A stretch of 64,000 nt of DNA from Nitrospiraceae bacterium (GCA_050246315.1 JBFWWG010000002.1:460811-524810); one strand, 5' to 3'. Counted from the stretch's first letter, positions 14,526 through 30,308 are shown. Translations and numbers: made by a program. The notes: generated by a model not told the origin, from the sequence alone.

Positions 14526-14537
14526 GTGGAGGCTGCG

Positions 14538-15654: not shown

Positions 15655-15700
15655 TCTTTGCACTTTTACCGTTCAAAGCTTAGACTTCCGGGAAATCCTG

Positions 15701-16936
15701 GTGATACCGCCTATGGCACGTCTGCAAAAACAGCGTGGTATTTGGACGCTCGAATTTAAATGCCTCCCAGGATGCCCAAACCATCCTTCTGGCGGTCTCC
15801 GCCACCACCATTCCCTCAGAACACGTGATGCCAGCCTTGCAGAGGAACTTTTCAAAGACTTCAAGCGAAAGCAGGAGGAAGATCGAGCGCGTCTAACCTT
15901 GCGGCTCCCGGTCGCCCATCCCGACGCAAAGCGGACGATCAGTGTCGCAACGCAGGAATACTTCCGTACAATGGCTGTAGAAAAGAGTCCGGCAACGATC
16001 AAGCGCGTCGAACGCCCTGCGACGACGCATCTGATCAAGCTACTTGGTGACATTCCGATTCATACGGTCGATGCAACCAAGATAGGTAATTACCGTGCCA
16101 GGTTTCTTGAGAACCATGCCCCAGCCACGTGGAATAGTCGGCGGGCCACTCTTAGAGCCATGTGGAATTGGTTCCTGAGACGCGGGTGGGTCGATGAGAA
16201 TCCTTTCGTCGAAGTGGGCGAGGTGCCGGACTTCGAGGATACACACCGGCTCCAGCCTGTGGCGCAGACCCGCTTGGCTGATGTGCTTTCAGCCCTGCCC
16301 GACCGAGGCTGGCAGCTTGTAGCCCTTTTCCTTTATCAGTCTCTCTGCCGAATCGATGAGCTTTGCAATCTCCGCAGAGATGACGTTCTCCGCGAGGAGG
16401 GCGTGATCCGATTTCGAAGGCCGAAGGAGCGGAAGAACAAGCGCATCAGGTACAAATACGTCGCCTTGACACCAGAACTTCTGGACATCATCAACGAGGC
16501 TGAGTCTCGGTGTGCGAGCGAATACGTTTTCTCACGAATTGAACGAGAAGGCCGCGCATTAAAGCGTCGCAAGGTTCACCACGTGCTCTTTAAAGCCGGG
16601 AAGCGGGTCGGCCTTGTAGTGTCCCCACACAGATTACGAAAATCAGGGGGTACTCACGCGCTCCAAAGAGGGAGCGCAAGTCTAAAGACCGTTCAAGAGA
16701 TCATGGGACACAGCGATATCCGCACGACTGCTCGTTATTTGCGTCCAGACTTAGAGGAGCAGCGAATCGCTCTCTCTGGTCTGAATATTTCACGACTCAA
16801 GAACGTTCCGAACACAGTGTTTCAGCAAGAAGCCAGGCAACTGGTCCAGAAGGCGCAGGCCGCTAGAAAGCAGAAAGCCGCCGCCGGCCGTCGTCATTTT
16901 ACACACGCCGACAAAGATGAGAACACAAGCCCTTGA
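15701..16936 (+). CDS. Tyrosine recombinase/integrase of the ICE
   Basis: CRIDEL (R), PHRLRKS (HxxR), MGHSDIRTTARY (H, Y). Confidence 0.92.
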   Translation: MIPPMARLQKQRGIWTLEFKCLPGCPNHPSGGLRHHHSLRTRDASLAEELFKDFKRKQEEDRARLTLRLPVAHPDAKRTISVATQEYFRTMAVEKSPATIKRVERPATTHLIKLLGDIPIHTVDATKIGNYRARFLENHAPATWNSRRATLRAMWNWFLRRGWVDENPFVEVGEVPDFEDTHRLQPVAQTRLADVLSALPDRGWQLVALFLYQSLCRIDELCNLRRDDVLREEGVIRFRRPKERKNKRIRYKYVALTPELLDIINEAESRCASEYVFSRIEREGRALKRRKVHHVLFKAGKRVGLVVSPHRLRKSGGTHALQRGSASLKTVQEIMGHSDIRTTARYLRPDLEEQRIALSGLNISRLKNVPNTVFQQEARQLVQKAQAARKQKAAAGRRHFTHADKDENTSP

Positions 16937-16964
16937 CACTAGGTCTTCTTTTCTTCACAACACT

Positions 16965-17014
16965 CCAGACTACGGATCTGGGGGTTACAGGTTCAAGTCC
17001 TGTCGGGCGCGCCA
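16965..17014 (+). repeat. att site: 3' 50 nt of tRNA-Arg(ACG), not a full tRNA
   Basis: CCAGA-CTACGGA-TCTGG anticodon arm, T-arm GTTCAAGTCC, ends GCGCGCCA; no D-arm or 5' acceptor strand upstream. Confidence 0.9.
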
Positions 17015-17075
17015 TTTCAGCCCTCTGAGTCGCAAAGAGGTCCCCTCGCACTTCCGACCCGACGATTCGTCAGCA

Positions 17076-17768
17076 TCACTCCAAACGAAACGTGATACCG
17101 CCGATCGCCGCGTGCATCATCAGATCACTGGACGTGCCCACATTGATGGTGCCGGGTAGCGGTCCGGTGATCGAGAACGGCGCATCAACCTGATAATAGG
17201 TAAAGCGGTATTCGGCAAAAAGACCGATGGTCTTGGTCAACATCAGCGTGGCGCCGGCATTGCCCTTGAAACCGACGCGGGTATCGCTCTGGGATTGATT
17301 CGGTGGATTGAAATTGCTGGTGTCTTTCATTTCTGAAACGAACAGGGCCGGCCCAAGTGCCAATGACGGCTGAATTCGTCCATGTGGAAACTTGTCGCTG
17401 ACCGCCAAGGGCACACGGAGCTTGACCACATCGAAGCCAATGCCGATGGTCCGGATGTCCATCTGGAAGAGTTGTCCAGTGAGCGCCCCGCTTGAAACTT
17501 GCTGGTCTTTGATGTCCGGCTCCATATAGAACACATCGAGGCCCACACCGAAAAAAGGCAATGAGGAGAACCAGTAGCCCGCTCTGGCCCCTCCGGTGAA
17601 TCGGGTATCGGTATCGAGACCATCAAACGTGCCGGCCGCATTGCCGATCTGGACGTCCATATTGATGTTGCCTGTTGTGGCGCCACCGTAGATGTCGAAG
17701 GCCCATTCAGCGGCGACGTGGCCCGGAATGGTGAGGGCCAGGCATATGACGAGCAGCGGGACGATCAT
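17076..17768 (-). CDS. Outer-membrane beta-barrel protein
   Basis: AGGAG RBS + MIVPLLV signal peptide; alternating beta strands, FAEYRF, C-terminal GITFRLE. Confidence 0.8.
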   Translation of the reverse strand: MIVPLLVICLALTIPGHVAAEWAFDIYGGATTGNINMDVQIGNAAGTFDGLDTDTRFTGGARAGYWFSSLPFFGVGLDVFYMEPDIKDQQVSSGALTGQLFQMDIRTIGIGFDVVKLRVPLAVSDKFPHGRIQPSLALGPALFVSEMKDTSNFNPPNQSQSDTRVGFKGNAGATLMLTKTIGLFAEYRFTYYQVDAPFSITGPLPGTINVGTSSDLMMHAAIGGITFRLE

Positions 17769-18144
17769 GGGCAATCTCCTTTGCGGATGGAACGTGAAGG
17801 TAATCAGGCATTCCCCCTGTTGATGATCGCGATTCGAGCATCTGGACGGCCGGCATGCATTCGAGCTGAACCGGCAGGAACGCATCGAGGTGACGCTATG
17901 CCTAACAGACTATCTTGTCAAGATGGCGGAGAGCGAGGGAGGGCTCTGTTGTCGTCTGAGTCACGGAGGACCGAACGGCCGGTAGTACGGTTCAAGTCCC
18001 TTCCGGCGAGACGTGACCGGTTCTCCATTGTCCACTCGACATTCTACCGGCTCTTACTCCATGAGATCGAATCCCTTGACATCCCCGCGGCCCGCACCTA
18101 AGCTTTGGGCAGATCGCATCGCGCAAAGGAGTCTGGACTTCGTC

Positions 18145-18432
18145 ATGATGAAGCGACGCGCCTGGATCATCCTGGCGGTGGTGTTGATCGGTTCCCTAGC
18201 CGGATGCGGGGGATGGCGAAGCAGCTATCTGAACGATCAGACGGGAAAGGCCGGCAAGGGAACTATCGAGCAGGATCTCGGGAGACCCACACACAAGATC
18301 CCGGAGTCACACGGCATGTCTCAGTGGATCTACCAGGATTGTCCGGTCTATCAAGCCTGCTATGTCTGGGTGCTGATATTTGATCGGAATGACATTCTTC
18401 AGAATTGGGAACGAGCGCCCGCACAATCATGA
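18145..18432 (+). CDS. Small lipoprotein (BamE/SmpA-like pattern)
   Basis: Lipobox LAGC; LGRP...WIY...LIFD. Confidence 0.65.
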   Translation: MMKRRAWIILAVVLIGSLAGCGGWRSSYLNDQTGKAGKGTIEQDLGRPTHKIPESHGMSQWIYQDCPVYQACYVWVLIFDRNDILQNWERAPAQS

Positions 18433-18788
18433 TTCGACCACACGTGGCAGATTCACCTCATGACCCGATTCGTTATTCCGTAATTGTGGCCGGGGCCCTC
18501 CTCTTGTTCGCGGTCGGCGGTTGCGGCCCTCAGTCGGTGACTCTCAACAGCGGGACGCGCTCGCCCATGATTCTTCAAGAAAGCGCCTACACGGAATCCG
18601 GTTGCCGCGAGCACCTCACTGACAAAGCCCACGAACTCGGCATGACCTTGCAGTCCGTCTCGGTCAAGGGCTGGTTCTTCGGCGACACGTTATTGTGGCC
18701 GCTCTACAAAGGATACGTGTGTTTCGGCACCGACCGGGATCTTCCGGCCCTGATCGTCGGCTCTCCGACCACCACTTACTACTACTGA
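18429..18788 (+). CDS. Putative lipoprotein
   Basis: Hydrophobic stretch + VGGC; ATGA overlap with upstream gene. Confidence 0.6.
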   Translation: MIRPHVADSPHDPIRYSVIVAGALLLFAVGGCGPQSVTLNSGTRSPMILQESAYTESGCREHLTDKAHELGMTLQSVSVKGWFFGDTLLWPLYKGYVCFGTDRDLPALIVGSPTTTYYY

Positions 18789-18884
18789 GTCGGGCCGGTA
18801 CCGGTTCGCCCGGCTGCTCGGCGTCGTTGACCTGCTATCCCCTTCTTGCCCATCTGTGGAGTTTCTGTGTGGCACTGGATCGAC

Positions 18885-19364
18885 ATGATGGTGGGGCATT
18901 GGCGGTTCCTTTGGTGTGCCGCTCTGCTCATCATCATTTGGGTCACCACCGTCCCCGGCAACGTATTCGTGGGTCACTCCCATTGGTTCATCGTCAAGTG
19001 GATTCCGCTTCAGGGTTTCAGATTGTCCTTCGAGTACCTGACCGATCTCGCAGGCAACATCCTCCTGTTCGTTCCGTTAGGGTACTCCCAACTACATCTG
19101 GAATCGCGCCTGGGACGGAGCGGCATCCCAGGAGCCGTGGTTCTCGGCGTGATCCTGTCCCTCTCTGTAGAGTTATTCCAGGTCTATTCGCACGGACGCG
19201 CGCCGTCGGTGACCGATGTCTTGTGCAATGGTGTCGGAGCCTGTATCGGCGCGTTGGCAGCCCGGTGGGAATCGCTTACTTCCATCCCACCACGTCAGAC
19301 CCATGCTCTCGGCGACAGTGATTCACGTACGGCTTGTAAACCTGACTGGGCCGGTGATGGCTGA
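18885..19364 (+). CDS. VanZ-family membrane protein
   Basis: GNILLFVPLG, SVELFQ, GRAPSVTDVLCNGVGA. Confidence 0.85.
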   Translation: MMVGHWRFLWCAALLIIIWVTTVPGNVFVGHSHWFIVKWIPLQGFRLSFEYLTDLAGNILLFVPLGYSQLHLESRLGRSGIPGAVVLGVILSLSVELFQVYSHGRAPSVTDVLCNGVGACIGALAARWESLTSIPPRQTHALGDSDSRTACKPDWAGDG

Positions 19365-19402
19365 ACATTGAAGGGAGCAAGCCGTGCGTGGCTCCGCCGG
19401 CC
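19181..19402 (+). repeat. Left 222-bp direct repeat of island (copy at 29734-29955)
   Basis: Ungapped alignment to 29734-29955, ~27 mismatches by manual count. Confidence 0.95.
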
Positions 19403-19559
19403 ATCGGTCCATAACTGGAGATCTTTGAACGTGACCCTCACAACCTGAGAGGCACATGTTACACACTTCCCTTACATTCTAAGCCGCGATGACATGCGAA
19501 TCGCACTCTCCAGTCAGAAGGAGATCGGATCCAAGGGAGGGAGACAAACATCCGACGGC

Positions 19560-21005
19560 TTAGTTATCTTGGAGCGGAACTAACAACAGGCCGGAACCTC
19601 CCGGCACAGTCAGAGACAAGCACCCTCGCCTACAGGGATAGGGCCTGTTACTGAACGGATCGACGTAGGCGACCGCACTTTGCCCAAGCACCTTGGTTCC
19701 GAGATTGATGGTCACCGACGCGGGTTGATCCTGGTTATTGAAGAGAAGGACTGTATGGTGCTTCACAGTCTGTCTCAGAAAAACACACAGGTTCTGACGG
19801 GTATCGATCAATATCTCCTGCCAGTCACCCTGGCGTAAGGGCATACATGTTTTTCTGACGGCCACCATTCGCTTCGTGAATTCCATCAGGTCATGGTTCC
19901 ACTTCTCTGGATCCCATTCCATGGCCCGCCGATTGTCCGGATCCCGTCCTCCCGTGAGACCAACTTCGTCGCCGTAGTAGATAATCGGAATCCCCGGATA
20001 GACGAATTGAAACAGCAGCGCGAGCTTCAGACGTTCCCAGTCACCTCGTGCAACCGTGGCGATCCGTTCAGTGTCATGAGAACCCAAAGGATTAGCCATG
20101 ACGATGGTATGATCCCACGGATGGTGATGAACGAGCTTACGAAGCCGTGCCGAGAACGCTCGGACGTCGATCGCACGAGCGATAAAAAAGTCCAGCACGA
20201 TCTCACGAAGGAGATAATTCGTCGCGCCATCGAATTGACCATTTCCAACCCATGGAGCGGCATCGCCCCACACTTCTGCCAACAGATATGCCTCAGGGTT
20301 TTTCTTCCTGACCGCTCTGCATAACTCCTTCCAAAAGGCATGGCCTCGAACCTCACCAACCGCATCCACGCGCCACCCATCTATCCCTTGCCCCATCCAA
20401 TAGTTGGCGACGTCTATGAAGTATCTGCGCGTCTCCGGATTCTGCAGGTTAAGAATCGGCATTACCGGCCGGCCCTGCCATCCTCTATAGTTCGCCGGCC
20501 CTCGACAGAACGGTCTGATGGGAAACCGATCGATATGAAACCATTTCCGATATACCGATCGCGGTCCGTTTTCCAGGACGTCGTAGAAGGGATAGAAGCC
20601 GCGGCCACAGTGATTAAAGACACCGTCGAGGAGCACACGGATTTCACTCGCATGAGCTTTGGCGATAAGTGTCTGGAAGTCCTCCAGTTTTCCCAACCGC
20701 GGATCGATGGTGTAGTAATCAAACGTGTTGTACCGATGATTAGAGGATGAAAGAAAGATCGGTGTCAGATAGATGACGTTCACGCCAAGATCGACCAAGT
20801 AATCCAAACGATCGATAATGCCCTGGAGTGTCCCTCCCATGAAGCCATGCCGCGTGGGTCGCACCGCCCACCGCGCACGTACCGCGGGTTCCCGCAGGTT
20901 GGTTCCCTTAGCGAACCGGTCTGGGAAGATGTGGTAGATCACCGCATCGCGCGCCCATACCGGCGCAGGGCTGAGATCAGCGCCTGTCGACGTTAGTCCG
21001 CGCAT
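19560..21005 (-). CDS. GH13 glycoside hydrolase (neopullulanase/maltodextrin glucosidase-like)
   Basis: YHIFPDRF, IYLTPIF, DGVFNH, GIDGWRVDA, AEVW, SHDTER, IYYGDE. Confidence 0.92.
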   Translation of the reverse strand: MRGLTSTGADLSPAPVWARDAVIYHIFPDRFAKGTNLREPAVRARWAVRPTRHGFMGGTLQGIIDRLDYLVDLGVNVIYLTPIFLSSSNHRYNTFDYYTIDPRLGKLEDFQTLIAKAHASEIRVLLDGVFNHCGRGFYPFYDVLENGPRSVYRKWFHIDRFPIRPFCRGPANYRGWQGRPVMPILNLQNPETRRYFIDVANYWMGQGIDGWRVDAVGEVRGHAFWKELCRAVRKKNPEAYLLAEVWGDAAPWVGNGQFDGATNYLLREIVLDFFIARAIDVRAFSARLRKLVHHHPWDHTIVMANPLGSHDTERIATVARGDWERLKLALLFQFVYPGIPIIYYGDEVGLTGGRDPDNRRAMEWDPEKWNHDLMEFTKRMVAVRKTCMPLRQGDWQEILIDTRQNLCVFLRQTVKHHTVLLFNNQDQPASVTINLGTKVLGQSAVAYVDPFSNRPYPCRRGCLSLTVPGGSGLLLVPLQDN

Positions 21006-21136
21006 GGTACAGCGAATAGAGAAGAGAGCAGGGCGACCGGACGGCTCAGGGGGCTCGCACCGGAAGCGTGGGGCCCGAACCGCCCTTGAAGTCCAATCTC
21101 GGCGGACACCAGACTGACGATGCCAACAGAATGGAA

Positions 21137-21667
21137 TTAACAGCAGGTCCCAACGCTAGGCGTGCAACATCCGCAGTCGGATCCCATGCCAGCACAGCAA
21201 TCGTGATATGAACAGCACCCTCCGGCACAACAACTTGTCATCTTCGATGAAGAACATGCAGGACAGCCCGGGCACGCACATGCCCCAAAAGATGGTCCCG
21301 CGGCAATCCCTTGCAGCAAACGAGTGCCGGTTAGAAGTCCGGAATTCAACAACTCGACTCCCAACTTCACGGTCGTGGTCAACCGGTCGAATAATGACCC
21401 CCCCGTCTCGGATGGTCCTGGGCTCCAACTAGACGTGGCGAACGGCACCGCTTGACCAGGAATGGATGCCCCGGCGGAATGAGAAAACCCGAACGGCCAC
21501 GGAGCTCTTCCCTCAGGGGGAAATGACCCGAAAGTCGGTCCGGTGGCATGGGCGAACGGAGGCGTCCCGCGTGTCTGTTCGACACGCTTCTTATACTCCT
21601 GAAATTCAGCCTTCGCTTTTTTCTCTTTCTCCTGAGACAAATCTTTTGCAGCCTGACGGGTGGCCAT
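21137..21667 (-). CDS. Hypothetical protein with amphipathic helix and extremely Cys-rich C-terminus
   Basis: AGGAGA RBS + MATRQ; tail CACPGCPAC...SCCAGGCCSYHDCC...CGCC...GTCC. Confidence 0.8.
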   Translation of the reverse strand: MATRQAAKDLSQEKEKKAKAEFQEYKKRVEQTRGTPPFAHATGPTFGSFPPEGRAPWPFGFSHSAGASIPGQAVPFATSSWSPGPSETGGSLFDRLTTTVKLGVELLNSGLLTGTRLLQGIAAGPSFGACACPGCPACSSSKMTSCCAGGCCSYHDCCAGMGSDCGCCTPSVGTCC

Positions 21668-21696
21668 AGGGTTCTCCTGGGCTCTGTGGTCAATGA

Positions 21697-22329
21697 TCAG
21701 CAACTAAACACTTCACACCATCGAATCCGCGCGGTCATGTTGAGAACCAGCACGGTCACATGCGCGCCAGGCTTGGTGGTGATAATGCCTTCTTTGATCT
21801 GGTACCCATCCTGAGGACCGGCCTGCTTGACCCAGGCGAGTATCGTGTTTTCACTATCCCGTACCAACACAAACACCAGCGCGGGGACATTGGGGGACGG
21901 AATGGTCGGCGTATATTCAATCGAAAGATGCACACAGCAGCCACCCCCGATGAAGGCGTTGCCCATCCCTGCCTTTCCAATCTCAAGAGCTTGATTCCCC
22001 GCCTTCAGGTCGCCGCCTGCTCCCTTTTCCTCCACCTCTTCCATCCCCATCCGGCTGATTATGGGCGCCGCGACCTTCAGATGCTGGAGCATCTCCCCGG
22101 CCTTATCGGTCTTCTGATTGAGCGCGGTGTCGGCTTGCACCAATAACTCCTTGGACTCTTTGCGACACTCACGATGCCAACAACAACACTTGCCGGCGGG
22201 ATGACAGCAGTTCTTACAAAACCCGGATGCGCCAGAATGAGGGAAGGAAAGTGAGCCAAAGGGACCATACGCAATCCCGGGGTAGGACAATGCCGAAGAA
22301 CCGGAATAGAAGGGTCGTCCATGCGTCAT
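21697..22329 (-). CDS. Cys-rich beta-domain protein, paralogue of 22360-22827
   Basis: CKNCCHPAGKCCCW; IGGGCCVHLSIEY ... ARIRWCEVFSC. Confidence 0.8.
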   Translation of the reverse strand: MTHGRPFYSGSSALSYPGIAYGPFGSLSFPHSGASGFCKNCCHPAGKCCCWHRECRKESKELLVQADTALNQKTDKAGEMLQHLKVAAPIISRMGMEEVEEKGAGGDLKAGNQALEIGKAGMGNAFIGGGCCVHLSIEYTPTIPSPNVPALVFVLVRDSENTILAWVKQAGPQDGYQIKEGIITTKPGAHVTVLVLNMTARIRWCEVFSC

Positions 22330-22359
22330 CTCGTCAACCTTTCCTTTCTTGACTCGGTC

Positions 22360-22827
22360 CTAACAACAGACCCGTTCACACCATCGTAACCGAGCCATTA
22401 CGTCTGTGGCTTCTACGGTCACTTTCGAACCCGGAGCCGCTGCACTGAAATCAGTCTTGACATGATAGCCGCCGGCAATCGGCGTCTCCTGCCAGGTCAC
22501 GGTATTACCCGCAAGCGTCACACTGACTTGAATAGAGGCAGATGTAGCACCTTCCTTCGGGAGGTACTCCAACGTCAGATGGACTGACCCATACCCACCG
22601 ATCAAGGCCTCCTTTGTCGTGACCGTGTTATCGACTACGACTTCCTGAGGCACGAGCATCGGGTAGGTCATGCCGCTCCAGATCCCCGCCTCGGAGGTCG
22701 GGATCAGGACATACGGTACCAGGATGGCGTACATCGCGGGACTCCCTCCACGGCACCCCGGGTATTGAGATGACAAACACGGATGGCAGAGTGCAGGATG
22801 CCACATGGCATAGGGATGATACATCAT
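22360..22827 (-). CDS. Cys-containing beta-domain protein, paralogue of 21697-22329
   Basis: IGGYGSVHLTLEY ... ARLRWCERVCC; ATGA-coupled. Confidence 0.8.
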   Translation of the reverse strand: MMYHPYAMWHPALCHPCLSSQYPGCRGGSPAMYAILVPYVLIPTSEAGIWSGMTYPMLVPQEVVVDNTVTTKEALIGGYGSVHLTLEYLPKEGATSASIQVSVTLAGNTVTWQETPIAGGYHVKTDFSAAAPGSKVTVEATDVMARLRWCERVCC

Positions 22828-23021
22828 GTGTCTCCTTGGTTAGATGGCGACGATTCCTTAGTCAGCTCCTTAGTGATTTTCAGCGCATCCTCGACGATCT
22901 GGAAGCCGCCATTCACAAACGAGGTAATCAGATCGGCAAACTGTTTGGGAATTTGATTGTCGAGGATCTGTGTAGACGTTTGGTTGATCAGTTTCGTGAC
23001 TTGTCCAAGTACTGTGGCCAT
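22824..23021 (-). CDS. 65-aa amphipathic-helix protein
   Basis: AAGGA RBS; heptad-like hydrophobic spacing; coupled to next gene. Confidence 0.7.
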   Translation of the reverse strand: MATVLGQVTKLINQTSTQILDNQIPKQFADLITSFVNGGFQIVEDALKITKELTKESSPSNQGDT

Positions 23022-23063
23022 ACATGCATCCTTTCCTATATTGATGCGGACACGCTCACGGGC

Positions 23064-24527
23064 TCAATTCCGCGAGAACGTCTCCGCATGCTGGGAGGCG
23101 CGACCCGAGGTACACCCACCCAGATGACCGTCGAGAAGCTGGACACCCTTGGTCAGGACTTCGAGGCCCCAATTGAAACTTTGCAGAGGCTCCAAGGCCA
23201 TACGTCCTGAGGCCTTTGCCATACTATTGAACGCCGAGACCGTGAGATCGAGCGGACCCATCATGCCACGCTCCTCAAGCTGTAGGATCGCCCCCCAGGC
23301 CGTTGGATCTCGTGGAAGCGCATGAAACAAGGCTTTGGGCACCAGGCAGGCGCTCTGGGAAATCACTCCGCTGAACACGCCACTGCAAAATTCTTGAAAC
23401 TGCCGATCTCGCATGGTGAGCCGCGCGATATTCTTGAGTACGAACAAACAAAATTCTTTCAGATTTGGATTCTTGGCAATCGAGAGAAACAATTCGGCGG
23501 TGCGCCAATCCAACTCGAATTGCTTTTCCCATTGCTCCTGGTACCATCGGAGCGTCTCGACGGAACAATCCCCGATTGAGACCGCGCGGCGCGCCGCCTC
23601 GGAGGCCCAATAGGCGCTTTCCATCGCTTTGTGAATTCCTCCCCCGTTCAGAGGATCGGCCTGATTCGCCGCATCGCCGATAAGCATGATTCGATCGGCC
23701 ACGATCCGATTCGGCTTATAAAACGCCACAGCCCCGCCGGAGACGCCGCCGCACTGAGAGGCCTCCCCTAACAAGTCGGCCAAGTCGTCTTTGAGGAAGG
23801 CTTGAAACGTCTCCTTGAGGTTTTGAATCACAGGAAAGGTCTTGTCAAACGCATACCCCAGCCCGATATTGGCGAAGCCTTCGTCATCGACGAATACCCA
23901 TCCGTAACCCGGGAAGAAGCGCTCGTCGAAATAGACCTTGATCTGTGATCCCTGATATTTCACATTGCGGTAATACGTGCGCAAGGAAAGTGCGGTCGCC
24001 CCGTCCCTGAGCACATTGCCGATCGAGCGGGACACGACCGAGCTCACTCCATCGGCACCAATGACCATCCTGCCTCTGAAGTCGACCTGCTTGTTGCCGC
24101 TGTCCACGGTAACAACGACTGAGTCGGACTGATGCACAATTCCGCGGACGGGACAGTTTGGCTCAAAGCGGGCTCCTGAGGCCATCGCATTGTTCACTAG
24201 AATATGATCGAAACGCCGCCGATCGAGGAGAATACAGAAATCGGGGTACTTGGTATTCGGAGGAAAACCGCCGGTCAGGACCAGCTCTCGGTTGATATAG
24301 AGATCGCAGCGCTTGATGCAGGATTTCGTATGGTCGAGGACTTCATCGACACAGCCCAGCAGGTCGAGCCAATAGATCGTCTGCGGGGTAAGACCGTCGC
24401 CGCAGACTTTGTCCCTTGGAAAGTCGGCGCGATCGAGCAGAAGAGTCGAAAGCCCCTTCCGCGCCGCGAACGCAGCGGCGCTGCTGCCGCCTGGACCCGC
24501 TCCAACCACGATGACATCGTACATCAT
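23064..24527 (-). CDS. Geranylgeranyl-reductase-family FAD oxidoreductase with C-terminal extension
   Basis: VVGAGPGGS, FPRDKVCGDG, RRRFD, IGADG, GYGWVF, LIGDAA..DPLNGGGI. Confidence 0.9.
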   Translation of the reverse strand: MMYDVIVVGAGPGGSSAAAFAARKGLSTLLLDRADFPRDKVCGDGLTPQTIYWLDLLGCVDEVLDHTKSCIKRCDLYINRELVLTGGFPPNTKYPDFCILLDRRRFDHILVNNAMASGARFEPNCPVRGIVHQSDSVVVTVDSGNKQVDFRGRMVIGADGVSSVVSRSIGNVLRDGATALSLRTYYRNVKYQGSQIKVYFDERFFPGYGWVFVDDEGFANIGLGYAFDKTFPVIQNLKETFQAFLKDDLADLLGEASQCGGVSGGAVAFYKPNRIVADRIMLIGDAANQADPLNGGGIHKAMESAYWASEAARRAVSIGDCSVETLRWYQEQWEKQFELDWRTAELFLSIAKNPNLKEFCLFVLKNIARLTMRDRQFQEFCSGVFSGVISQSACLVPKALFHALPRDPTAWGAILQLEERGMMGPLDLTVSAFNSMAKASGRMALEPLQSFNWGLEVLTKGVQLLDGHLGGCTSGRASQHAETFSRN

Positions 24528-24585
24528 AGCGGACGACCATCCGCGAACTGTGCTGTTTGGCCTTCGTTACCCGGCATCCTTGCCG

Positions 24586-25326
24586 TTACAAGCCCGGGGG
24601 CACCACAAGAAGTTTCACGGGAATTTCGAATGCCTGGTCTGAGACAACGATCACTTTCCCATGATACACATCAGAAGGAATACCCTGAGGCACCTCACCT
24701 CTTAACACAAATTTCTCGAAATCCATGGGTGCGATAGTCTTCGCGTTGGGTTTCACGATAAACCCTGTACAGGAAAACTTGGTTCCACTCACCTGACCGA
24801 CAAAACCATCAAGTTCCAACCTGACTTGCCGTGCCGCGCTGGGCGAATCGTTATTGATCGAAAACGACACCTGCGTACGTTGCCCCGGTGTCACAGGTAA
24901 TCGATTCGCGATGCAATAGCTCTCTTCAGCCGCTCCCGCCGGATCTTGGGATGATCGTCCAGCCGCCGTTGGTTCAGGTCCATCCCCGTGGTAGCCCGGT
25001 TGAGGTTGAGCGCTCGGCTGAGGACGATCACTGGCAGATGCCAGAATCGATTCTTGGACCATCGAGCCAAACCGATTAATCAGCGTCAGGCCCAGGCTCA
25101 GTCCCGCTTCGGCAAGATCTAATCCTTTCGCCAACGTCGCGCCGAGTTGGTCAGCCCTATTTAGGAGCGGGGTCCTCGGCGGCTCCTGCGAGGCGTGAGG
25201 TTGGCGTTTCTTGCTGGTTGCCCGCGGTCGCCTACCCGCCGCCTGTCCGCCTTTTCGGTAACCAGCCGGCTTGGCTTCTGTTTTCGCCGTCTTTTCCATC
25301 GATCTTTCCGCGTTGCTATCCGTCAT
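24586..25326 (-). CDS. Hypothetical protein: amphipathic helix + C-terminal Ig-like beta-sandwich
   Basis: ATGA overlap with upstream gene; DQLGATLAKGLDLAEAG; PG....VSFSINN...YHGKVIV. Confidence 0.75.
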   Translation of the reverse strand: MTDSNAERSMEKTAKTEAKPAGYRKGGQAAGRRPRATSKKRQPHASQEPPRTPLLNRADQLGATLAKGLDLAEAGLSLGLTLINRFGSMVQESILASASDRPQPSAQPQPGYHGDGPEPTAAGRSSQDPAGAAEESYCIANRLPVTPGQRTQVSFSINNDSPSAARQVRLELDGFVGQVSGTKFSCTGFIVKPNAKTIAPMDFEKFVLRGEVPQGIPSDVYHGKVIVVSDQAFEIPVKLLVVPPGL

Positions 25327-25589
25327 CGACAACATCCGCACCAAGAGCAAGACGGCTTACAGGTAACGGTGCAATGGTGATAAATGGCAGGACCGCAACC
25401 ATGGCACGGGCCATGAGCGCCTCCGGAATCCCAATGCCCGCGTCCTGGTATAACGCTTCCGATTATGCGTCCGACCAACCATACCCCTGTATGTACCGCG
25501 CTCAATGCCAATCCCATCGTCTGACCTAATGCGTCGACAAGTCCCTGTCCATGACACCCAAGGTCGTGAGCTGAATGTCGATGCCTCAT
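25323..25589 (-). CDS. 88-aa His/Cys-rich protein with amphipathic helix
   Basis: GLVDALGQTMGLAL; tail PCHGC...HHCTVTCKPSCSWCGCCR; 3 nt after previous stop. Confidence 0.7.
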   Translation of the reverse strand: MRHRHSAHDLGCHGQGLVDALGQTMGLALSAVHTGVWLVGRIIGSVIPGRGHWDSGGAHGPCHGCGPAIYHHCTVTCKPSCSWCGCCR

Positions 25590-25592
25590 GGA

Positions 25593-26363
25593 TCACTCTC
25601 CCCCGCTGACGGAACTGAACCCGGTCTCCACGGCCGTAACCGATGAGGCCATCGAGAACCTATTCGCAGGGTCGCCGACGTATAACCCTCCATGGTACCG
25701 CGCGGCTCCGCCCGGCATTGGACCGGTTGCGGTCCTCCCGGCGGTCGCATGGCCGGCAGCATGCGCCATCCCTGTCCCACTCCGGTGATGCGTACTTTGG
25801 CCAATCGGCTCATGTGGATGAGGCACGCATGGCATCACAACCTTTGAAGACATGGTCGAGACCTTGCTCGGAATTGCCGGATTTCCGGCCGTGGCTACCT
25901 CCGGAAAGCTGCGGTGCAGAGACCGGGACTGCTCGCGACGGGCGCGGTCTCTTGGCGTCAGAACGGTGTGCCCGTCGATGTTGATGCGAAACAGCTCGAT
26001 ACCGAGCAGTTTGCCTCGCAGCGTATAGCTTGAAGGAAGACAAAACTCCTGATGCAATCCTACGGACACCGGAGGTAACCGGCGCACATTCAGGTCGACC
26101 CCGGGCAGTTGGCGCAGGGAGAGATTGACTGTCGGTAAATTCGTGACGTTGAACTTCTCCACCCGGATCGGGTCCAGATTTCGAACCTCATTGACGCGCA
26201 GCGATTCCACTGAGATTGGGTCGATGTGATTAAGCTCCTTGATGTGAACGGCCGCCGGAGCAATATGACGGACCTCGCTGATGACCAAGGGATCGATGTT
26301 GCTCAGCTCGCTGATCCTCAGCTTCTCGATGTTTTTCGCTTCTTTGATTTTTATGTCGCCCAT
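25593..26363 (-). CDS. Hypothetical protein with N-terminal ~10-11-aa repeats
   Basis: IKEAKNIEKL/ISELSNIDPL/ISEVRHIAPA/IKELNHIDPI/VNEVRNLDPI then LPxVxL repeats; AAGGA RBS. Confidence 0.8.
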   Translation of the reverse strand: MGDIKIKEAKNIEKLRISELSNIDPLVISEVRHIAPAAVHIKELNHIDPISVESLRVNEVRNLDPIRVEKFNVTNLPTVNLSLRQLPGVDLNVRRLPPVSVGLHQEFCLPSSYTLRGKLLGIELFRINIDGHTVLTPRDRARREQSRSLHRSFPEVATAGNPAIPSKVSTMSSKVVMPCVPHPHEPIGQSTHHRSGTGMAHAAGHATAGRTATGPMPGGAARYHGGLYVGDPANRFSMASSVTAVETGFSSVSGGE

Positions 26364-26389
26364 GGCTTCATCCTTCCGTCAGCCGCTCC

Positions 26390-27103
26390 TCAGACCAGAC
26401 CGGGCCAATCATAGTTCATCTGAATCACCTTGGCCTCATCCTGAACTGTCGGATGGCTTTGCAATCGCACCGTGACCGTCCTGATAGTGAGGCTCCCGCT
26501 CCCAGTGACTTGGTAGAGAAACCACGGATCCGCCCCCGCACCGGGCTGCACCGCATGATCCACCAGCCATTCAACCGTCTGTGAGGAGCTGTCACGGATG
26601 AAGGCCCTGAACATCTGCATCGTGTTACTGGCATCGATATATGAATTGTCGTGCCCTTGCGGATAGTACAGGTCGATCCGTTTCGGAAAAATCTCGACGG
26701 ATGGCTGAGATACCGGCTCGGGACCACGACCGATAAGGGTGACGAATGCAAAGGCTTTTCGAAGGGGGTTTTCAACCGGGGTGGCCACAACCACGTCTGT
26801 CAACCCGTGAGGAAGGCTGCCTTTGGGAGGAGCCACGTAGAGCCCGGCCGGATCGATGGAGCCTGCACCGGAATTGCCGGCAAGGTCTTGGACGGTCCAA
26901 GTGACCTTGGACGTCGATCCGTTGTACACAACCGCGTCGAACCGCACTTGTGTATTGACCGGATCAACGAATCGTTCATCCTGGAAATAGAGTTCGGCAT
27001 TCTCCGGCCAGACCTCCACCTCTATTTGATGCTCGCAGAGCATCTCGTGCCACACGTGAACAGCAGAAGGAATGACGTGTCTGGACAGGGAATACGGGGT
27101 CAT
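26390..27103 (-). CDS. Hypothetical protein with Ig-like domains
   Basis: VTWTV......GSIDPAGLYVAP motif; second V.W.V unit; no signal peptide. Confidence 0.75.
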   Translation of the reverse strand: MTPYSLSRHVIPSAVHVWHEMLCEHQIEVEVWPENAELYFQDERFVDPVNTQVRFDAVVYNGSTSKVTWTVQDLAGNSGAGSIDPAGLYVAPPKGSLPHGLTDVVVATPVENPLRKAFAFVTLIGRGPEPVSQPSVEIFPKRIDLYYPQGHDNSYIDASNTMQMFRAFIRDSSSQTVEWLVDHAVQPGAGADPWFLYQVTGSGSLTIRTVTVRLQSHPTVQDEAKVIQMNYDWPGLV

Positions 27104-27130
27104 CGGCCTACCCGATCGAGGGTGGAGTTA

Positions 27131-27559
27131 TTACATCGCCTCCACACCTTCTTCGAAATCGCCGTCAGGCAACTCAATGGCACAATTCGCTATCTTGCCA
27201 AACAATTTGCCCTTGACGTTCAGCTTGGATTTACATCCCACTTTCCCTTTCACTTCAGCCTGCACACCCTTGGTGCCCAAGATCCCCTCAAGCCGCACGC
27301 TGGCGCCTTCAATCGTCACCGAAAACGGGGCCACTTTCACGCCAAAACTACCGAGCGACGCGATCATCTGCATACCACCGCGTCGTTTGAGAAAGGGGAT
27401 CGCCAGGTTAATCGGAATCTCGTCGACCTTGACGGCGATGCAACTGACCGTCGCGCTAAGCGCCCCCGTCGCTGTGGATTCAAAAGCGATCGGCGCGGTC
27501 ATCGCCTGCAGACTGAACTCGGGCTCGCTTTCCATCAGGATCTGAGAATTGAGCTTCAC
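27131..27559 (-). CDS. Hypothetical beta-rich protein
   Basis: AGGAGG RBS; GTGA overlap with upstream gene. Confidence 0.75.
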   Translation of the reverse strand: MKLNSQILMESEPEFSLQAMTAPIAFESTATGALSATVSCIAVKVDEIPINLAIPFLKRRGGMQMIASLGSFGVKVAPFSVTIEGASVRLEGILGTKGVQAEVKGKVGCKSKLNVKGKLFGKIANCAIELPDGDFEEGVEAM

Positions 27560-27765
27560 TGTTGCTCCTCCTGCTGATTGGCCGCCGCTGCGTGGATGCC
27601 ATCCGGATAAATACGTCCCACAAGATCACTGCACATCGCATCGACACGCTGGTTGAGCTTTTCAAACCCCTTCAACGCCTGTGCGATCTCCTCGCAGTTG
27701 GCCCCTTCAATTTCGAACGAGACAAAAGGGCCAAGCTTAATCCTCAGTATCATGTTGGCGGGCAT
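27556..27765 (-). CDS. 69-aa hypothetical protein
   Basis: Operon position, coupled to next gene. Confidence 0.7.
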   Translation of the reverse strand: MPANMILRIKLGPFVSFEIEGANCEEIAQALKGFEKLNQRVDAMCSDLVGRIYPDGIHAAAANQQEEQQ

Positions 27766-27819
27766 TCTACCACCCTTCTCGAAGAAAACATATGTCAGAC
27801 CCCGGCATCGTCGCCCTCG

Positions 27820-28491
27820 TCACCGCCTTGATTTCGACTTTCGAGCGGATCCGGATCGTGATACCTGTTCTGCACTATTAGGTTTCATTTCACGCCGCAT
27901 ACCGTTCATAGGCTTTCCGTTCCCATTCATGCGCGAACTCTCATGAAGATTCTTGTCGCACTCTTGCAGGACATCTACCATCTCGCCAAGCGCACTGAGC
28001 AGGACCTCCAGCGCTTCTCGCTGCTGCTTATCCAACGTGGCGTACAGCTCTTCGAGTTTCTTCTCCAGATCACGGCCTTCTTGCGAATTTCGGAATTCTC
28101 TTCCTCGCTCGCGAAGAATGTTTCCGAATTGGTCCAGAATGGAAATCACACCATAGAGGAGATCCACCGACAGCTTCCTTTCCAAGTTTTCATCAGCGAA
28201 GGGCTCCGGTTGACAAATGGGGCAGGCAAGCGGGCGTTCGTCGGGCGTCAGCGACCACCGGGCAAACAAGGCCGACCGGGAAGACTCCGGAATTGCTGGG
28301 CAATGACTCCGATGCAGCCGTCCGCAGACAGGGTCGAACTGCATGGGTGCTTGTGCGGCTTCATCGCGATAATCAATCCGAAAGAGCGGATACCTTCCGC
28401 TTAGCTTTCCGTCCGCATGCCAGTCCTGGAGCGAAATCGCGAATGCATCAGCCCATAACATTCCGGTAGCCGCCTTCTGATCGTTATTCAT
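27820..28491 (-). CDS. Hypothetical protein with LHxxxC...CxxC metal-binding motif and helical C-terminus
   Basis: RLHRSHCPAI...ACPICQP; overlaps upstream stop. Confidence 0.75.
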   Translation of the reverse strand: MNNDQKAATGMLWADAFAISLQDWHADGKLSGRYPLFRIDYRDEAAQAPMQFDPVCGRLHRSHCPAIPESSRSALFARWSLTPDERPLACPICQPEPFADENLERKLSVDLLYGVISILDQFGNILRERGREFRNSQEGRDLEKKLEELYATLDKQQREALEVLLSALGEMVDVLQECDKNLHESSRMNGNGKPMNGMRREMKPNSAEQVSRSGSARKSKSRR

Positions 28492-29401
28492 AGACGGCCC
28501 AAGGTAACTCCTGTTGAGGTTTCTGAAGCCGATGCTTTCTGAGCCTCGTGAGATAGTACTTCGTCATGAATCCGATCATGACGTCCCGCCCATTTCCCTC
28601 CGGCAGGCCATCGCTCAGGCGTTTCATGTAGACATAAAACAGACGGCGTAATGTTCGTTCAGGATCAGCGACTTGATTGATGTAAGTGAGCCGATTGTAA
28701 AACAGGTCCGAATAGTAATCGCCGTGATCGTCGATGTACATGATGAGGGAGCCGGCCAGAAAGATCAGACTTGCGTACCGCAGCGGGAGTTCGGGAACCA
28801 AGAAACCAGTCAACACCAAGATCGCATGGCCACTCCGGTTCCTCGCATTCTCCCGCAGCACATGAAGTTGTTGATGTCGGGGCAGATCATCAAATGAGGA
28901 CCGGTCAAGACGAACCTGAACATCCCGCTTCTGCGCGTTGAGCAAGAGAAGAATGGCTTGCCGGAGGAACCGATCGAGGACATCCCGTTCCGCAAACAAT
29001 CGCGAGATGATCACATAAAACAGCTTTTCGCGTGGGGTTCGAATCTCAAACCATCCCGTCGTCAACAGGAGTTCGAACCGTTCCAGGTAGTCCCTCGCCG
29101 CGTCATTCCCAAAATCGTCGAGAAAACTATCGGCTAAAAAACAGCAGCCGCCAAACAAGCTGCCGATCCTCTGCCGTCGCGCGTCGTAGGGATACCCACA
29201 AATTTCCGAACAGGCGTGCCCGACAACGGTCATTTTCGCGCTTAGTTCCATCATTTTTCGGCATTCGTCGCGACGATCTCGGTAGAGCTCGGGATAGTAC
29301 GCGCGGACGAGCGGCTCCAGACACGCACCGGCCGCCTTACGATAGTCTTCGAACAGGCGGTCGATCTGAAAACTTGCTTCTGAGCGCTGAGGCTGTCGCA
29401 T
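28484..29401 (-). CDS. Putative class I isoprenoid-synthase-fold protein (terpene synthase/prenyltransferase-like)
   Basis: All-helical; Asp-rich motifs LADSFLDD and YIDDHGDYYSD, with RNRSG between; GGAG RBS at ATG 29401. Confidence 0.65.
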   Translation of the reverse strand: MRQPQRSEASFQIDRLFEDYRKAAGACLEPLVRAYYPELYRDRRDECRKMMELSAKMTVVGHACSEICGYPYDARRQRIGSLFGGCCFLADSFLDDFGNDAARDYLERFELLLTTGWFEIRTPREKLFYVIISRLFAERDVLDRFLRQAILLLLNAQKRDVQVRLDRSSFDDLPRHQQLHVLRENARNRSGHAILVLTGFLVPELPLRYASLIFLAGSLIMYIDDHGDYYSDLFYNRLTYINQVADPERTLRRLFYVYMKRLSDGLPEGNGRDVMIGFMTKYYLTRLRKHRLQKPQQELPWAVYE

Positions 29402-29733
29402 CGACGCTCCGCCAGGAGGAGCGTTCGCATTATAGGTCTTTTGCACCGAAAACAAAATCCGCGGCGGAAGTCCTCCGGCATTCTATGAAACCTCGACGCC
29501 GACTCACATTGGCGCTGTCGCAAAGAAATTGCACTGGAGGCAGATTACGTTGGCCTCTATTTCCTTGCCCCGCCGAGTGGTCCGCGAATGAGGCGATGCG
29601 ACGGCTCTTACGATAAAGAGTCTTATTCCCCTTCGCCCAATAACCATGATCTGCCAGAAATTCGATCGGTTCCTGCAAGACAATCACGGACGCCCTGTTG
29701 GGTCGGCGATGATCCCCTCAGGGAAATCATGTC

Positions 29734-29955
29734 GGTCTAGGCGCACGGACGCACGCCGTCGGTGACCGACGTCCTGTGCAATGGTGTCGGAGCCTGGATC
29801 GGCGCGTTGGCGGTTCGCTGGGAATCGCTTACTTCCATCCCACCACGTCATACCCCCGTTCGCGGAGACAGCGATTCACGTACTGCTTGTAAACCTGACT
29901 GGGCTGGCGACGGCTGAACAGCGACCGAAGCAAGCCGTGCGTGGCCCCGCCGGCC
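29734..29955 (+). repeat. Right 222-bp direct repeat of island
   Basis: Matches 19181-19402; holds an orphan vanZ 3' fragment and the intact glycine-zipper gene 3' end. Confidence 0.95.
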
Positions 29956-30308
29956 GCGCCCGCCGCCGCGCCGGTCATGGCTCCTCGTCCCGGATTGCCG
30001 CGGATCGCGCCGGCCACTGCTCCGCCCGCCGCTCCGGACGCCGATCCCATGGCTGCTCCTGTGGCAGTTCTGGTGGCGGTCTCCCCGGTCTTGCCCGAAT
30101 CCGGCTCGGCACCGGCCGCCTCGGCAGCCTCCCCGCAGAACTCGATATCCTGTTCGGCAACGGTCTCACCAACATCCTGGAAATGCGCATTCGGATAGAG
30201 GATCGGCTTCGAACGAGAACAGCCGGCCAACAGGATGACCGCCACAGCCAACAGCGATGTCGCCGCGCCCGCGCGCCCGCGCCGGTCGATCAGCAGTCGG
30301 ATCATCAT
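29829..30308 (-). CDS. Glycine-zipper lipoprotein
   Basis: LAGC lipobox; GAAxGAAxG repeats; YVNRCLRERGY. Confidence 0.85.
   Translation of the reverse strand: MMIRLLIDRRGRAGAATSLLAVAVILLAGCSRSKPILYPNAHFQDVGETVAEQDIEFCGEAAEAAGAEPDSGKTGETATRTATGAAMGSASGAAGGAVAGAIRGNPGRGAMTGAAAGAAGGATHGLLRSLFSRRQPSQVYKQYVNRCLRERGYDVVGWK

What the first reader, a model, noticed from the sequence alone, without database searches (positions are those of the whole stretch)
21137..25589. Shared amphipathic-helix motif in three or four operon proteins
Seen: SLFDRLTTTVKLGVELLNSGLLTGTRLLQG (21137-21667), RADQLGATLAKGLDLAEAGLSLGLTLINRF (24586-25326) and GLVDALGQTMGLALSAVHTGVWLVGRIIGS (25323-25589) align as D.L..T..........G......[IL]. 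The 65-aa protein (22824-23021, ADLITSFVNGGFQIVEDAL) is wholly amphipathic. Inference: a common targeting or anchoring segment for a lipid monolayer or shell, analogous to chlorosome Csm envelope proteins or phasins. The resemblance to CsmB is from memory and unverified.
Basis: partly seen in the sequence, partly recalled or inferred. Interest (0 to 1): 0.7.

Follow-up and report, generated by a model that had tools for sequence, protein, structure and literature searches.

The report
Shared helix in orphan isoprenoid cassette
Three neighbouring proteins of an undescribed 13-gene bacterial gene set carry the same conserved 30-residue helix, most likely the handle that fastens them to one common cell structure whose nature is still unknown.

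Summary
The three quoted segments lie at the stated places and align as written. The same helix is conserved in orthologues from about nine phyla. Profile-profile comparison puts motif on motif: g188 against g254 gives P 1.7e-5 and 0 of 150 column shuffles reach it; g188 against g88 gives P 7.4e-6.

The 65-aa protein is an amphipathic helix protein but does not carry the motif. A partial copy sits instead in the 223-aa protein.

The genes belong to a 13-gene minus-strand cassette (21137-29455) kept in one order in 41 loci. It joins an isoprenoid-synthase-fold protein and a geranylgeranyl-reductase-family flavoprotein to eleven orphan proteins, four of them with cysteine C-termini. Here it lies in an island flanked by 222-nt direct repeats.

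The helix links variable linkers to different payloads: cysteine tails in g188 and g88, a PapD/MSP-like sandwich in g254.

I read it as a common protein-protein assembly or docking helix (0.42).

This scan met the same cassette twice before on other DNA (e1-899512, e1-4561957). I found no paper describing it.

The parts
21137..21703 (-). g188: basic N-terminus, Pro-rich variable linker, shared helix, Cys-rich tail ending C.PSVG.CC. The likely start is M12 at 21670.
   Evidence: ORF; orthologue alignment; A3 invariant N109, L112 and tail cysteines
21302..21397 (-). Shared helix motif, g188 copy (SLFDRLTTTVKLGVELLNSGLLTGTRLLQGIA)
21697..22329 (-). g210: Cys-rich N-terminus plus beta-rich domain, with the invariant C-terminus ARVRWCEVFSC. 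It is a paralogue of g155.
   Evidence: no Pfam family
22360..22827 (-). g155: paralogue of g210 with C-terminus ARLRWCE..CC
22824..23021 (-). g65: conserved 59-76-aa helical, amphipathic protein. It does not carry the shared motif.
23064..24527 (-). Geranylgeranyl-reductase-family flavoprotein with a roughly 100-aa C-terminal extension holding a conserved helix (DPLxNxDWGLEVATKAxRL)
   Evidence: TIGR02032 199.9 bits against a cut-off of 158.8; extension; weak and register-inconsistent likeness to the motif
24586..25350 (-). g254: basic disordered N-terminus, shared helix, variable linker, PapD/MSP/ASH-like beta-sandwich. The likely start is 25299.
   Evidence: helix 48-89 at pLDDT 63-69; sandwich 128-237 at pLDDT 97-98
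25063..25158 (-). Shared helix motif, g254 copy (RADQLGATLAKGLDLAEAGLSLGLTLINRFGS)
25323..25589 (-). g88: small His/Cys-rich protein with helix, invariant Trp and a Cys tail C.P...C.CC. It is a paralogue of g188.
   Evidence: (P 7.4e-6 against g188)
25449..25544 (-). Shared helix motif, g88 copy, the most diverged (GLVDALGQTMGLALSAVHTGVWLVGRIIGSVI)
25593..26363 (-). g256: the most conserved orphan protein of the cassette (N-terminal 165 residues). It was used to find the related loci.
   Evidence: poor monomer model
26390..27103 (-). g237: orphan protein; two internal repeats by eye
27131..27559 (-). g142: orphan beta-rich protein
27556..27765 (-). g69: orphan small protein
27820..28491 (-). 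g223: Cys-containing N-terminal part followed by helices. Residues about 117-127 (SILDQFGNILR) match the first third of the motif in a consistent register.
   Evidence: (P 7.7e-4 with 0 of 100 shuffles; P 5.6e-3 with 1 of 100)
28484..29455 (-). g323: isoprenoid-synthase-fold protein with two conserved Asp-rich motifs
19560..21005 (-). Alpha-amylase-family gene next to the cassette here and in 7 of 41 loci; it lies inside the island.
19181..19402 (.). Left copy of the 222-nt direct repeat, at the 3' end of a VanZ-like gene
29734..29955 (.). Right copy of the 222-nt direct repeat (88% identical)

Best explanation
The motif is a real, homologous module: a roughly 30-residue core of a longer alpha-helix, with consensus D-x-h-G-x-x-h-x-x-G-h-D-L-x-(N/E)-A-(G)-L-x-x-G-h. 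It is present once each in g188, g254 and, more diverged, g88. g188 and g88 are paralogues (helix plus Cys tail). g254 joins the same helix to a PapD/MSP-like sandwich.

I infer that the helix is a protein-protein assembly or docking element. It is largely apolar, with a ridge of small residues, and cannot stay free in water. It packs either against one common partner of the cassette or against the sister helices. In that way it brings two cysteine tails and one Ig-like adaptor domain, each on a flexible linker, to the same place in a structure built by the 13-gene cassette. That structure also involves an isoprenoid made or modified by g323 and the reductase.

Shown: the motif, its conservation, its register, the domain architectures, and the cassette with its mobility. 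Inferred: that the helix binds protein rather than lipid, and that a structure is built at all.
For: - Motif conserved across about nine phyla while the flanking linkers vary in length and sequence.
- Profile-profile matches with motif on motif, and shuffle controls.
- Identity, not just hydrophobicity, is conserved. Asn is 100% in 20 non-redundant g188 segments. Glu is 95%, Leu 100% and Gly 95% in 22 g254 segments.
- Gly at motif positions 12, 19 and 23 (g254 numbering) is shared by both families and falls in the middle of the apolar arc on a 100-degree wheel (my hand calculation).
- AF2 gives one isolated 42-residue helix at only pLDDT 63-69, beside a sandwich at 97-98. This is the look of a helix that lacks its partner.
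- No protein of the cassette has a transmembrane-grade segment (maximum KD19 1.58).
- The payload of g254 is a fold used elsewhere for protein-protein contacts: PapD chaperones and the VAP MSP domain, Z 9.3-12.1.
- All 13 genes stay in one order in 41 loci, and no flanking gene is conserved across taxa.
- Start and stop codons overlap, as expected for a stoichiometric assembly.
- Pairwise-identity matrices of g254 and g188 correlate best of 15 family pairs (r 0.94, 14 loci). Kin are not independent, so this is weak.
Against: - No partner is identified.
- HMM cross-hits between families are individually insignificant (E 0.1-9).
- The link of g88 to g254 is weak (P 0.018-0.07; 3-7 of 150 shuffles reach it).
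- The helix is G/A/L/S/T-rich with few charges, and its apolar positions are spaced 4-4-3 (my reading). Lipid-surface helices can look like that.
- Two isoprenoid-type enzymes in the cassette make a lipid surface available.
- The motif was found fused to no other kind of domain. All 31 hits in the 5.8-billion-protein search were g254-like or g188-like. The variety of cargo typical of address tags is therefore missing.
Confidence: 0.42

Rival explanations
1. The helix lies flat in a lipid monolayer or membrane surface, for example a droplet of the isoprenoid made by g323 and the reductase. It anchors the three proteins there, as phasins, perilipins or chlorosome envelope proteins do.
For: - The cassette holds an isoprenoid-synthase-fold protein with both Asp-rich motifs conserved at 90% or more in 34 sequences.
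- It also holds a geranylgeranyl-reductase-family enzyme.
- The helix is moderately amphipathic: muH 0.36-0.48, the 89th-98th percentile of all 18-mers.
- It is rich in small and hydroxyl residues and isolated in the AF2 model.
- The 65-aa protein beside it is a conserved amphipathic helix protein with family median muH 0.52.
Against: - muH is below the median per-protein maximum of ordinary ORFs (0.53).
- Net charge is about 0 to -1.
- A HeliQuest-type discriminant, with the formula recalled from memory, passes in 4 of 20, 0 of 22 and 10 of 23 family members.
- Conserved Gly lies inside the apolar face, and polar residues are invariant.
- No Csm or phasin family match.
- No lipid product has been shown.
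Confidence: 0.25
2. The shared helix is only a relic of common descent. g188, g88 and the N-terminal half of g254 come from one ancestral small protein. The helix now serves each protein's own folding or self-association, such as a homo-oligomeric coiled coil, without any common target.
For: - g188 and g88 align over both helix and Cys tail.
- The motif was found in no architecture other than these families.
- Long isolated helix in the model.
Against: - Conservation of the same residues in the same register in two families that differ in everything else.
- This holds across about nine phyla, which argues for a shared constraint.
Confidence: 0.15
3. The helix binds a small ligand, an isoprenoid chain or a metal ion handed on to the cysteine tails, through its invariant Asp/Asn/Glu stripe.
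For: - Invariant polar residues sit on a narrow stripe.
- Cys/His-rich tails follow the helix in two of the three carriers.
Against: - g254 has no Cys tail.
- No known ligand-binding family matches.
- Nothing was tested directly.
Confidence: 0.06

Closest known systems
Encapsulation peptides of bacterial microcompartments (PMC4594438; abstract and passages read)
   Same: One short helix recurs in several proteins of one locus. It is tied to unlike functional domains by poorly conserved linkers and serves assembly by binding a structural protein through its apolar face.
   Different: Encapsulation peptides are 15-20 residues long, terminal, and lack sequence conservation. Here the helix is about 30-42 residues, internal, and strongly conserved. 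No BMC shell domain is present among the 13 proteins. The payloads are Cys tails and an Ig-like domain, not enzymes.
Encapsulin cargo-loading peptides, including Family 2 operons with terpene enzymes
   Same: A shared tag, and isoprenoid enzymes next to structural genes.
   Different: No HK97-fold or encapsulin family match in any cassette protein. The tag here is a long helix, not a short C-terminal peptide.
   Same: Small helical, amphipathic proteins next to lipid-making genes. A surface-coating role is conceivable for g65 and the helix.
   Different: No sequence match: 0 of 10 g65 members and none of the motif proteins. The genome has no Chlorosome_CsmC match and only sub-threshold Phasin_2 matches outside the cassette. 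Hydrophobic moments are ordinary.
VAP-type tethers and PapD-like/ASH/MSP domains
   Same: The C-terminal domain of g254 has this fold: 6fvi_A Z 11.4, rmsd 2.4, 103 residues; VAP-A MSP 6tqr_A Z 10.5. As in VAP, an MSP-like domain is joined by a linker to a helix that fixes it somewhere.
   Different: Sequence identity is only 8-19%. The order of the parts is reversed. There is no transmembrane anchor and no periplasmic signal. Shared fold does not show shared function.
Glycine-zipper / small-xxx-small helix-packing motifs (recalled concept)
   Same: Conserved Gly at i, i+7 and i+11 within the apolar face in both main families.
   Different: These motifs are known mainly from membrane helices. 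Here no segment reaches transmembrane hydrophobicity, and packing has not been shown.
ComQ/ComX and PalQ peptide prenylation (PMC5331326, PMC10853753, PMC13731918; search listing only)
   Same: An all-helical isoprenoid-synthase-like enzyme is encoded beside small proteins with a conserved Trp close to the C-terminus. g155 and g210 have an invariant RWCE seven residues from the end.
   Different: g323 hits no polyprenyl_synt model. The putative substrates are 113-229-aa domain proteins, not pheromone peptides. No modification has been shown.

Membership tests
BMC encapsulation peptide | Short (15-20 aa) predicted amphipathic helix | tested here: not met
   Predicted helix of 42 residues; conserved core about 30 residues; muH 0.36-0.48
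BMC encapsulation peptide | Joined to the functional domain by a poorly conserved linker | tested here: met
   Linkers are variable in length and sequence on both sides of the helix in the g254 and g188 alignments
BMC encapsulation peptide | BMC shell proteins encoded in the locus | tested here: not met
   No BMC domain among the 13 proteins in Pfam at E up to 0.1
Chlorosome envelope proteins (Csm) | Sequence match to a chlorosome protein family | tested here: not met
   0 of 10 g65 members at E up to 10; none for g188, g254 or g88; no Chlorosome_CsmC match in the genome at E up to 1
Chlorosome envelope proteins (Csm) | Host makes chlorosomes (bacteriochlorophyll c/d/e pathway) | not tested
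   Only the CsmC family was sought in the genome
Phasins | Sequence match to a phasin family | tested here: not met
   No phasin family for the motif proteins or g65. Phasin_2 in the genome matches only at E 0.24-0.88, all outside the cassette
Geranylgeranyl reductase family (TIGR02032), gene 23064-24527 | Score above the curated cut-off | tested here: met
   199.9 bits against 158.8. The substrate is not known: all equivalog models are far below their cut-offs
Class I isoprenoid synthase fold, gene 28484-29455 | Two Asp-rich motifs | tested here: met
   CFLADSFxDDFG and IDDHGDxxxD conserved at 90% or more in 34 sequences
Class I isoprenoid synthase fold, gene 28484-29455 | Structural or sequence match to the fold | tested here: inconclusive
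   Atlas model TM 0.58-0.65 to squalene/phytoene synthase and polyprenyl synthetase clusters; feature score 0.91 to DUF2600; no Pfam hit
PapD-like/ASH/MSP beta-sandwich, g254 residues 145-254 | Fold-level match over the whole domain | tested here: met
   Foldseek E 5e-7 to 5e-5; VIA Z 9.3-12.1, rmsd 2.0-2.4 over 90-104 residues. This is fold only, not family
Endospore appendage subunits (Ena, DUF3992; lead from e1-4561957) | Sequence match of g155 or g210 to DUF3992 | tested here: inconclusive
   0 of 18 family members at E up to 1. The fold was not modelled here
Prenylated proteins (C-terminal CC/CXC or ComX-type Trp) | Conserved C-terminal Cys or Trp motif | tested here: met
   Pattern only: g155 ends RWCE..CC, g210 RWCEVFSC, g188 C.PSVG.CC, g88 C.CC
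Prenylated proteins (C-terminal CC/CXC or ComX-type Trp) | Covalent isoprenoid on the protein | not testable with these tools
   Needs mass spectrometry

The most novel reading that the evidence does not exclude
The cassette builds an unrecognised intracellular protein-lipid structure. g323 is a ComQ-like all-helical prenyl transferase. It attaches isoprenoid chains to the invariant Trp-Cys/Cys ends of g155, g210, g188 and g88, and the reductase then saturates those chains. The shared helix is the address by which the cysteine-tail proteins and the PapD-like adaptor are recruited to that structure. This would be bacterial protein lipidation of a Rab- or ComX-like kind, used for self-assembly and carried as a mobile 10-kb unit between phyla.
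Probability: 0.1. Interest if true: 0.9.

Novelty: new variant of a known kind. Interest (0 to 1): 0.62.

Why it matters
A 13-gene set kept intact in about nine phyla, with 11 proteins in no family, is one of the larger blind spots a genome scan can find. The shared helix gives it a first experimental handle. It is a short, transplantable segment that should localise a reporter to whatever the cassette builds. It carries a handful of invariant residues to mutate, and it makes a clear either/or test between protein binding and lipid binding. If the helix proves to be an address tag, it would be a new targeting system for a new bacterial compartment or fibre. If the cysteine ends prove to be prenylated, it would extend protein lipidation in bacteria.

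Tried and rejected
- Complex prediction. Three chains were sent: g254 44-95, g88 8-56, g188 86-130. The verdict was 'no answer', score 0.01 against a mark of 0.32. This is neither for nor against binding.
- AF2 of g256. The model was poor: pLDDT 47.7, with only a hairpin at 107-135. I did not search with it.
- Atlas look-up of g210. There is no model and the best feature score is 0.78, so it gave nothing.
- PDB sequence searches with g323 and with the g256 profile gave only E 2 and E 6.
- Single-family motif HMMs:
  - The cross-family hits are right in place but insignificant (E 0.1-9).
  - Genome-wide, only each family's own protein is significant among 50,181 ORFs.
- Profile of both families against 5.8 billion proteins, longer lengths:
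  - It gave 31 hits, all of the two known architectures.
  - A 438-aa hit is a miscalled frame.
  - Only the 8000 candidates sharing most words were scored, so absence of other architectures is weak.
- GGR C-terminal helix as a fourth copy. It gives P 0.0018 and 0 of 100 shuffles against g254, but the register against g188 differs by seven residues (P 0.048, 6 of 100). I did not count it.
- g65 as a fourth copy: rejected (P 0.12-0.13).
- A first hhalign run used a wrong flag and gave end-to-end alignments. I repeated it correctly.
- Literature. Four full-text searches found no description of the cassette.
- RNA-library contigs cover nearly the whole operon in 4 runs of 3 studies. Contigs in RNA libraries do not prove transcription.


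Full report
WHAT IS THERE

The flagged span lies inside a tight minus-strand operon of 13 genes, 29455 down to 21137. The genes are:
- g323 (28484-29455)
- g223 (27820-28491)
- g69 (27556-27765)
- g142 (27131-27559)
- g237 (26390-27103)
- g256 (25593-26363)
- g88 (25323-25589)
- g254 (24586-25350)
- a 487-aa flavoprotein (23064-24527)
- g65 (22824-23021)
- g155 (22360-22827)
- g210 (21697-22329)
- g188 (21137-21703)

Several start and stop codons overlap. Pfam and NCBIfam name only the flavoprotein: geranylgeranyl reductase family TIGR02032, 199.9 bits against a cut-off of 158.8, with every substrate-specific model far below its cut-off. They also name the alpha-amylase-family gene just downstream (19560-21005).

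g323 has no Pfam hit, but its Atlas model resembles squalene/phytoene synthase and polyprenyl synthetase models (TM 0.58-0.65). Its nearest named feature neighbour is tetraprenyl-beta-curcumene synthase (0.91). Two Asp-rich motifs are conserved at 90% or more in 34 sequences. None of the 13 proteins has a transmembrane-grade segment.

THE CASSETTE ELSEWHERE

g256 has 461 relatives, all unnamed. A scan of one genome per species returned 41 loci. By their record titles they come from Nitrospirota, Calditrichota, Alpha-, Beta- and Gammaproteobacteria, a 'Deltaproteobacteria' SEEP-SRB2 genome, Actinomycetes, Methylomirabilis, Acidobacteriota, Nitrospinota and a bin labelled Bacillaceae. They include the cultured Paraburkholderia panacisoli DCY113.

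In all loci long enough, the 13 genes stand in the same order. No flanking gene is shared across taxa except the amylase, in 7 of 41 loci.

The cassette is rare within the host's own group. With g256 as query it was not found in 40 relatives, three of them of the same genus. It was found in 1 of 400 further genomes of the phylum.

In this window the cassette sits in a low-GC stretch (0.55-0.58 against 0.60-0.63). It lies between two 222-nt direct repeats that are 88% identical, at 19181-19402 and 29734-29955. The left copy is the 3' end of a VanZ-like gene, and a tyrosine integrase lies at 15701-16936. The cassette is therefore a mobile unit. Two earlier reports of this scan (e1-899512, e1-4561957) described the same cluster on other DNA and also found it undescribed. 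My own synteny test agrees.

THE OBSERVATION

The three segments translate exactly as quoted and fit the written pattern. The pattern is rare: 6 of 8800 long ORFs of the genome, two of them g188 and g254 themselves. It was chosen after the fact, so the real tests are the following.

1. Orthologues. The helix is the conserved island of both larger proteins, between linkers that vary in length and sequence. The g254-type motif is found in 38 of 41 loci and the g188-type in 32 of 41. The remaining 3 and 9 loci end before that position.
2. The g88 position. A small His/Cys-rich protein occupies it in 26 loci under my filter. It has a helix, an invariant Trp and a tail C.P...C.CC.
3. Profile against profile.
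   - g254 motif against the g188 family: P 1.7e-5 over 33 columns.
   - The reverse: P 7.8e-4.
   - g188 against g88: P 7.4e-6.
   - g254 against g88: only P 0.018-0.07.
   - The other ten families give P of 0.02 or more, apart from 11 columns in g223.
4. Column shuffles. Shuffling the query profile never reached the observed score for g254/g188 (0 of 150 each way; observed 29.7 against a maximum of 22.0). For g88 it did so 7 and 3 times in 150.
5. MAFFT alone aligned 42 segments of both families in that register.

Against this, plain HMMs see the sister family only at E 0.1-9 and see nothing else in the genome.

The 65-aa protein is conserved, helical and amphipathic, but it is not a carrier (P 0.12-0.13).

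A partial copy of the first third (S-h-h-D-Q-F-G-x-x-L-R) is present in g223, in a register consistent with both families: P 7.7e-4 with 0 of 100 shuffles, and P 5.6e-3 with 1 of 100.

The conserved helix at the end of the reductase resembles the middle of the motif, but in inconsistent registers, so I do not count it.

ANATOMY OF THE MODULE

In 20 and 22 non-redundant segments the two main families share D/E, a hydrophobic residue, G, hydrophobic, G, hydrophobic, D/E, L, then N (100% in g188) or E (95% in g254), then A, G, L, G. On a 100-degree wheel (my hand calculation) the apolar residues cover about 200-240 degrees, with the shared glycines in the middle of that face. The conserved acidic, amide and basic residues form a narrow stripe.

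AF2 of g254 (65-sequence alignment) gives one isolated helix at residues 48-89 with pLDDT 63-69. It also gives a beta-sandwich at 128-237 with pLDDT 97-98. The sandwich matches PapD-like, ASH and MSP domains: Foldseek E down to 5e-7, VIA Z 9.3-12.1.

The same helix therefore carries a Cys tail in g188 and g88 and an Ig-like adaptor in g254, each on a flexible linker. g188 and g88 also align in their tails, so they are paralogues.

AMPHIPATHICITY

Maxima of the 18-residue hydrophobic moment are 0.48, 0.39 and 0.36 for the three motifs and 0.57 for g65. Among 18-mers of 35 long ORFs of the window the 90th, 95th and 99th percentiles are 0.37, 0.42 and 0.50. The median per-protein maximum is 0.53.

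Family medians are 0.48, 0.42, 0.37 and 0.52, with net charge about 0 to -1.

The helices are as amphipathic as the best helix of an ordinary protein, no more.

HOW IT MOST LIKELY WORKS

I commit to a protein-protein assembly or docking helix (0.42). My reasons are these:
- Residue identities, including polar ones, are held across phyla.
- A small-residue ridge lies inside the apolar face.
- The helix is too apolar to be free, yet not membrane-grade.
- The payloads are of a kind used for contacts and cross-links.
- The cassette has the tight coupling of a stoichiometric assembly.

The lipid-surface anchor (0.25) stays alive because two isoprenoid-type enzymes belong to the set and the composition is compatible with it. 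A mere relic of paralogy (0.15) and ligand binding (0.06) are weaker.

No partner is known. The one complex job gave no answer and counts for nothing.

COMPARISON WITH WHAT IS KNOWN

The logic is closest to encapsulation peptides of bacterial microcompartments: a short amphipathic helix, a poorly conserved linker, and binding to shell proteins (PMC4594438, passages read). Here, however, the helix is twice as long, internal and sequence-conserved, and there is no BMC or encapsulin shell gene.

Chlorosome Csm proteins and phasins share only the general idea. No family match exists.

For the whole cassette I found no description in four full-text searches.

The invariant RWCE...C ends of g155 and g210 and the CC ends of g188 and g88 stand next to an all-helical isoprenoid-synthase-like protein. 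This recalls ComQ/ComX-type prenylation (search listing only) and Rab-type CC motifs (recalled). That is the basis of the novel case, untested.

EXPRESSION

Contigs from four RNA libraries of three studies cover nearly all of the operon at 99% identity or more. This is compatible with transcription but does not prove it.

Noticed in passing
window 14000-30000; repeats 19181-19402 and 29734-29955; integrase 15701-16936; VanZ-like gene 18846-19364: The cassette plus the amylase gene sits in a low-GC island bounded by 222-nt direct repeats (88% identical). The repeats duplicate the 3' end of a VanZ-like gene, and a tyrosine integrase lies nearby. The cassette was not found in 40 relatives and was found in 1 of 400 other genomes of the phylum.
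   Followed up: partly
window 29818 joined to 19266 (run X16): One contig of an RNA library joins the right end of the island back to its left end across the repeats, with 32 shared letters. It could be a circular or tandem form of the 10.5-kb unit, or an assembly artefact at the repeat.
   Followed up: no
window 22360-22827 and 21697-22329: The paralogues g155 and g210 end in the nearly invariant A-R-(L/V)-R-W-C-E-x-x-(C/S)-C. g210 also has a conserved Cys-rich N-terminal block (GFC..CCHP..CCC..RECRKE.KELLV) and IGGGCCVHLSIEY. No Pfam family matched, including DUF3992, in 18 members.
   Followed up: partly
window 25593-26363: g256 is the most conserved orphan, with 30 invariant columns in 17 diverse sequences. 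Yet AF2 models only a beta-hairpin at 107-135 (pLDDT 47.7 overall). By eye, its N-terminal 100 residues read as proline-punctuated repeats of about 11 residues. It may fold only in an assembly.
   Followed up: partly
window 28484-29455: g323 keeps two Asp-rich motifs (CFLADSFxDDFG and IDDHGDxxxD) and has an isoprenoid-synthase-like Atlas model, but it matches no Pfam family.
   Followed up: partly
window 23064-23360 (C-terminal ~100 aa of the reductase): The cassette's geranylgeranyl-reductase homologue carries a C-terminal extension with a conserved helix, DPLxNxDWGLEVATKAxRLxER. The genome's second homologue, on contig C15, is only 26% identical over residues 3-379.
   Followed up: partly
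window 19560-21005: A cyclomaltodextrinase-like alpha-amylase-family gene follows the cassette here and in 7 of 41 loci (Nitrospirales, Methylomirabilis, Gammaproteobacteria). This hints at a link with alpha-glucan metabolism.
   Followed up: no
window 29829-30308: Just outside the island lies a glycine-zipper (OmpA-like / YMGG-like) small protein on the minus strand. It is unrelated by position to the cassette.
   Followed up: no
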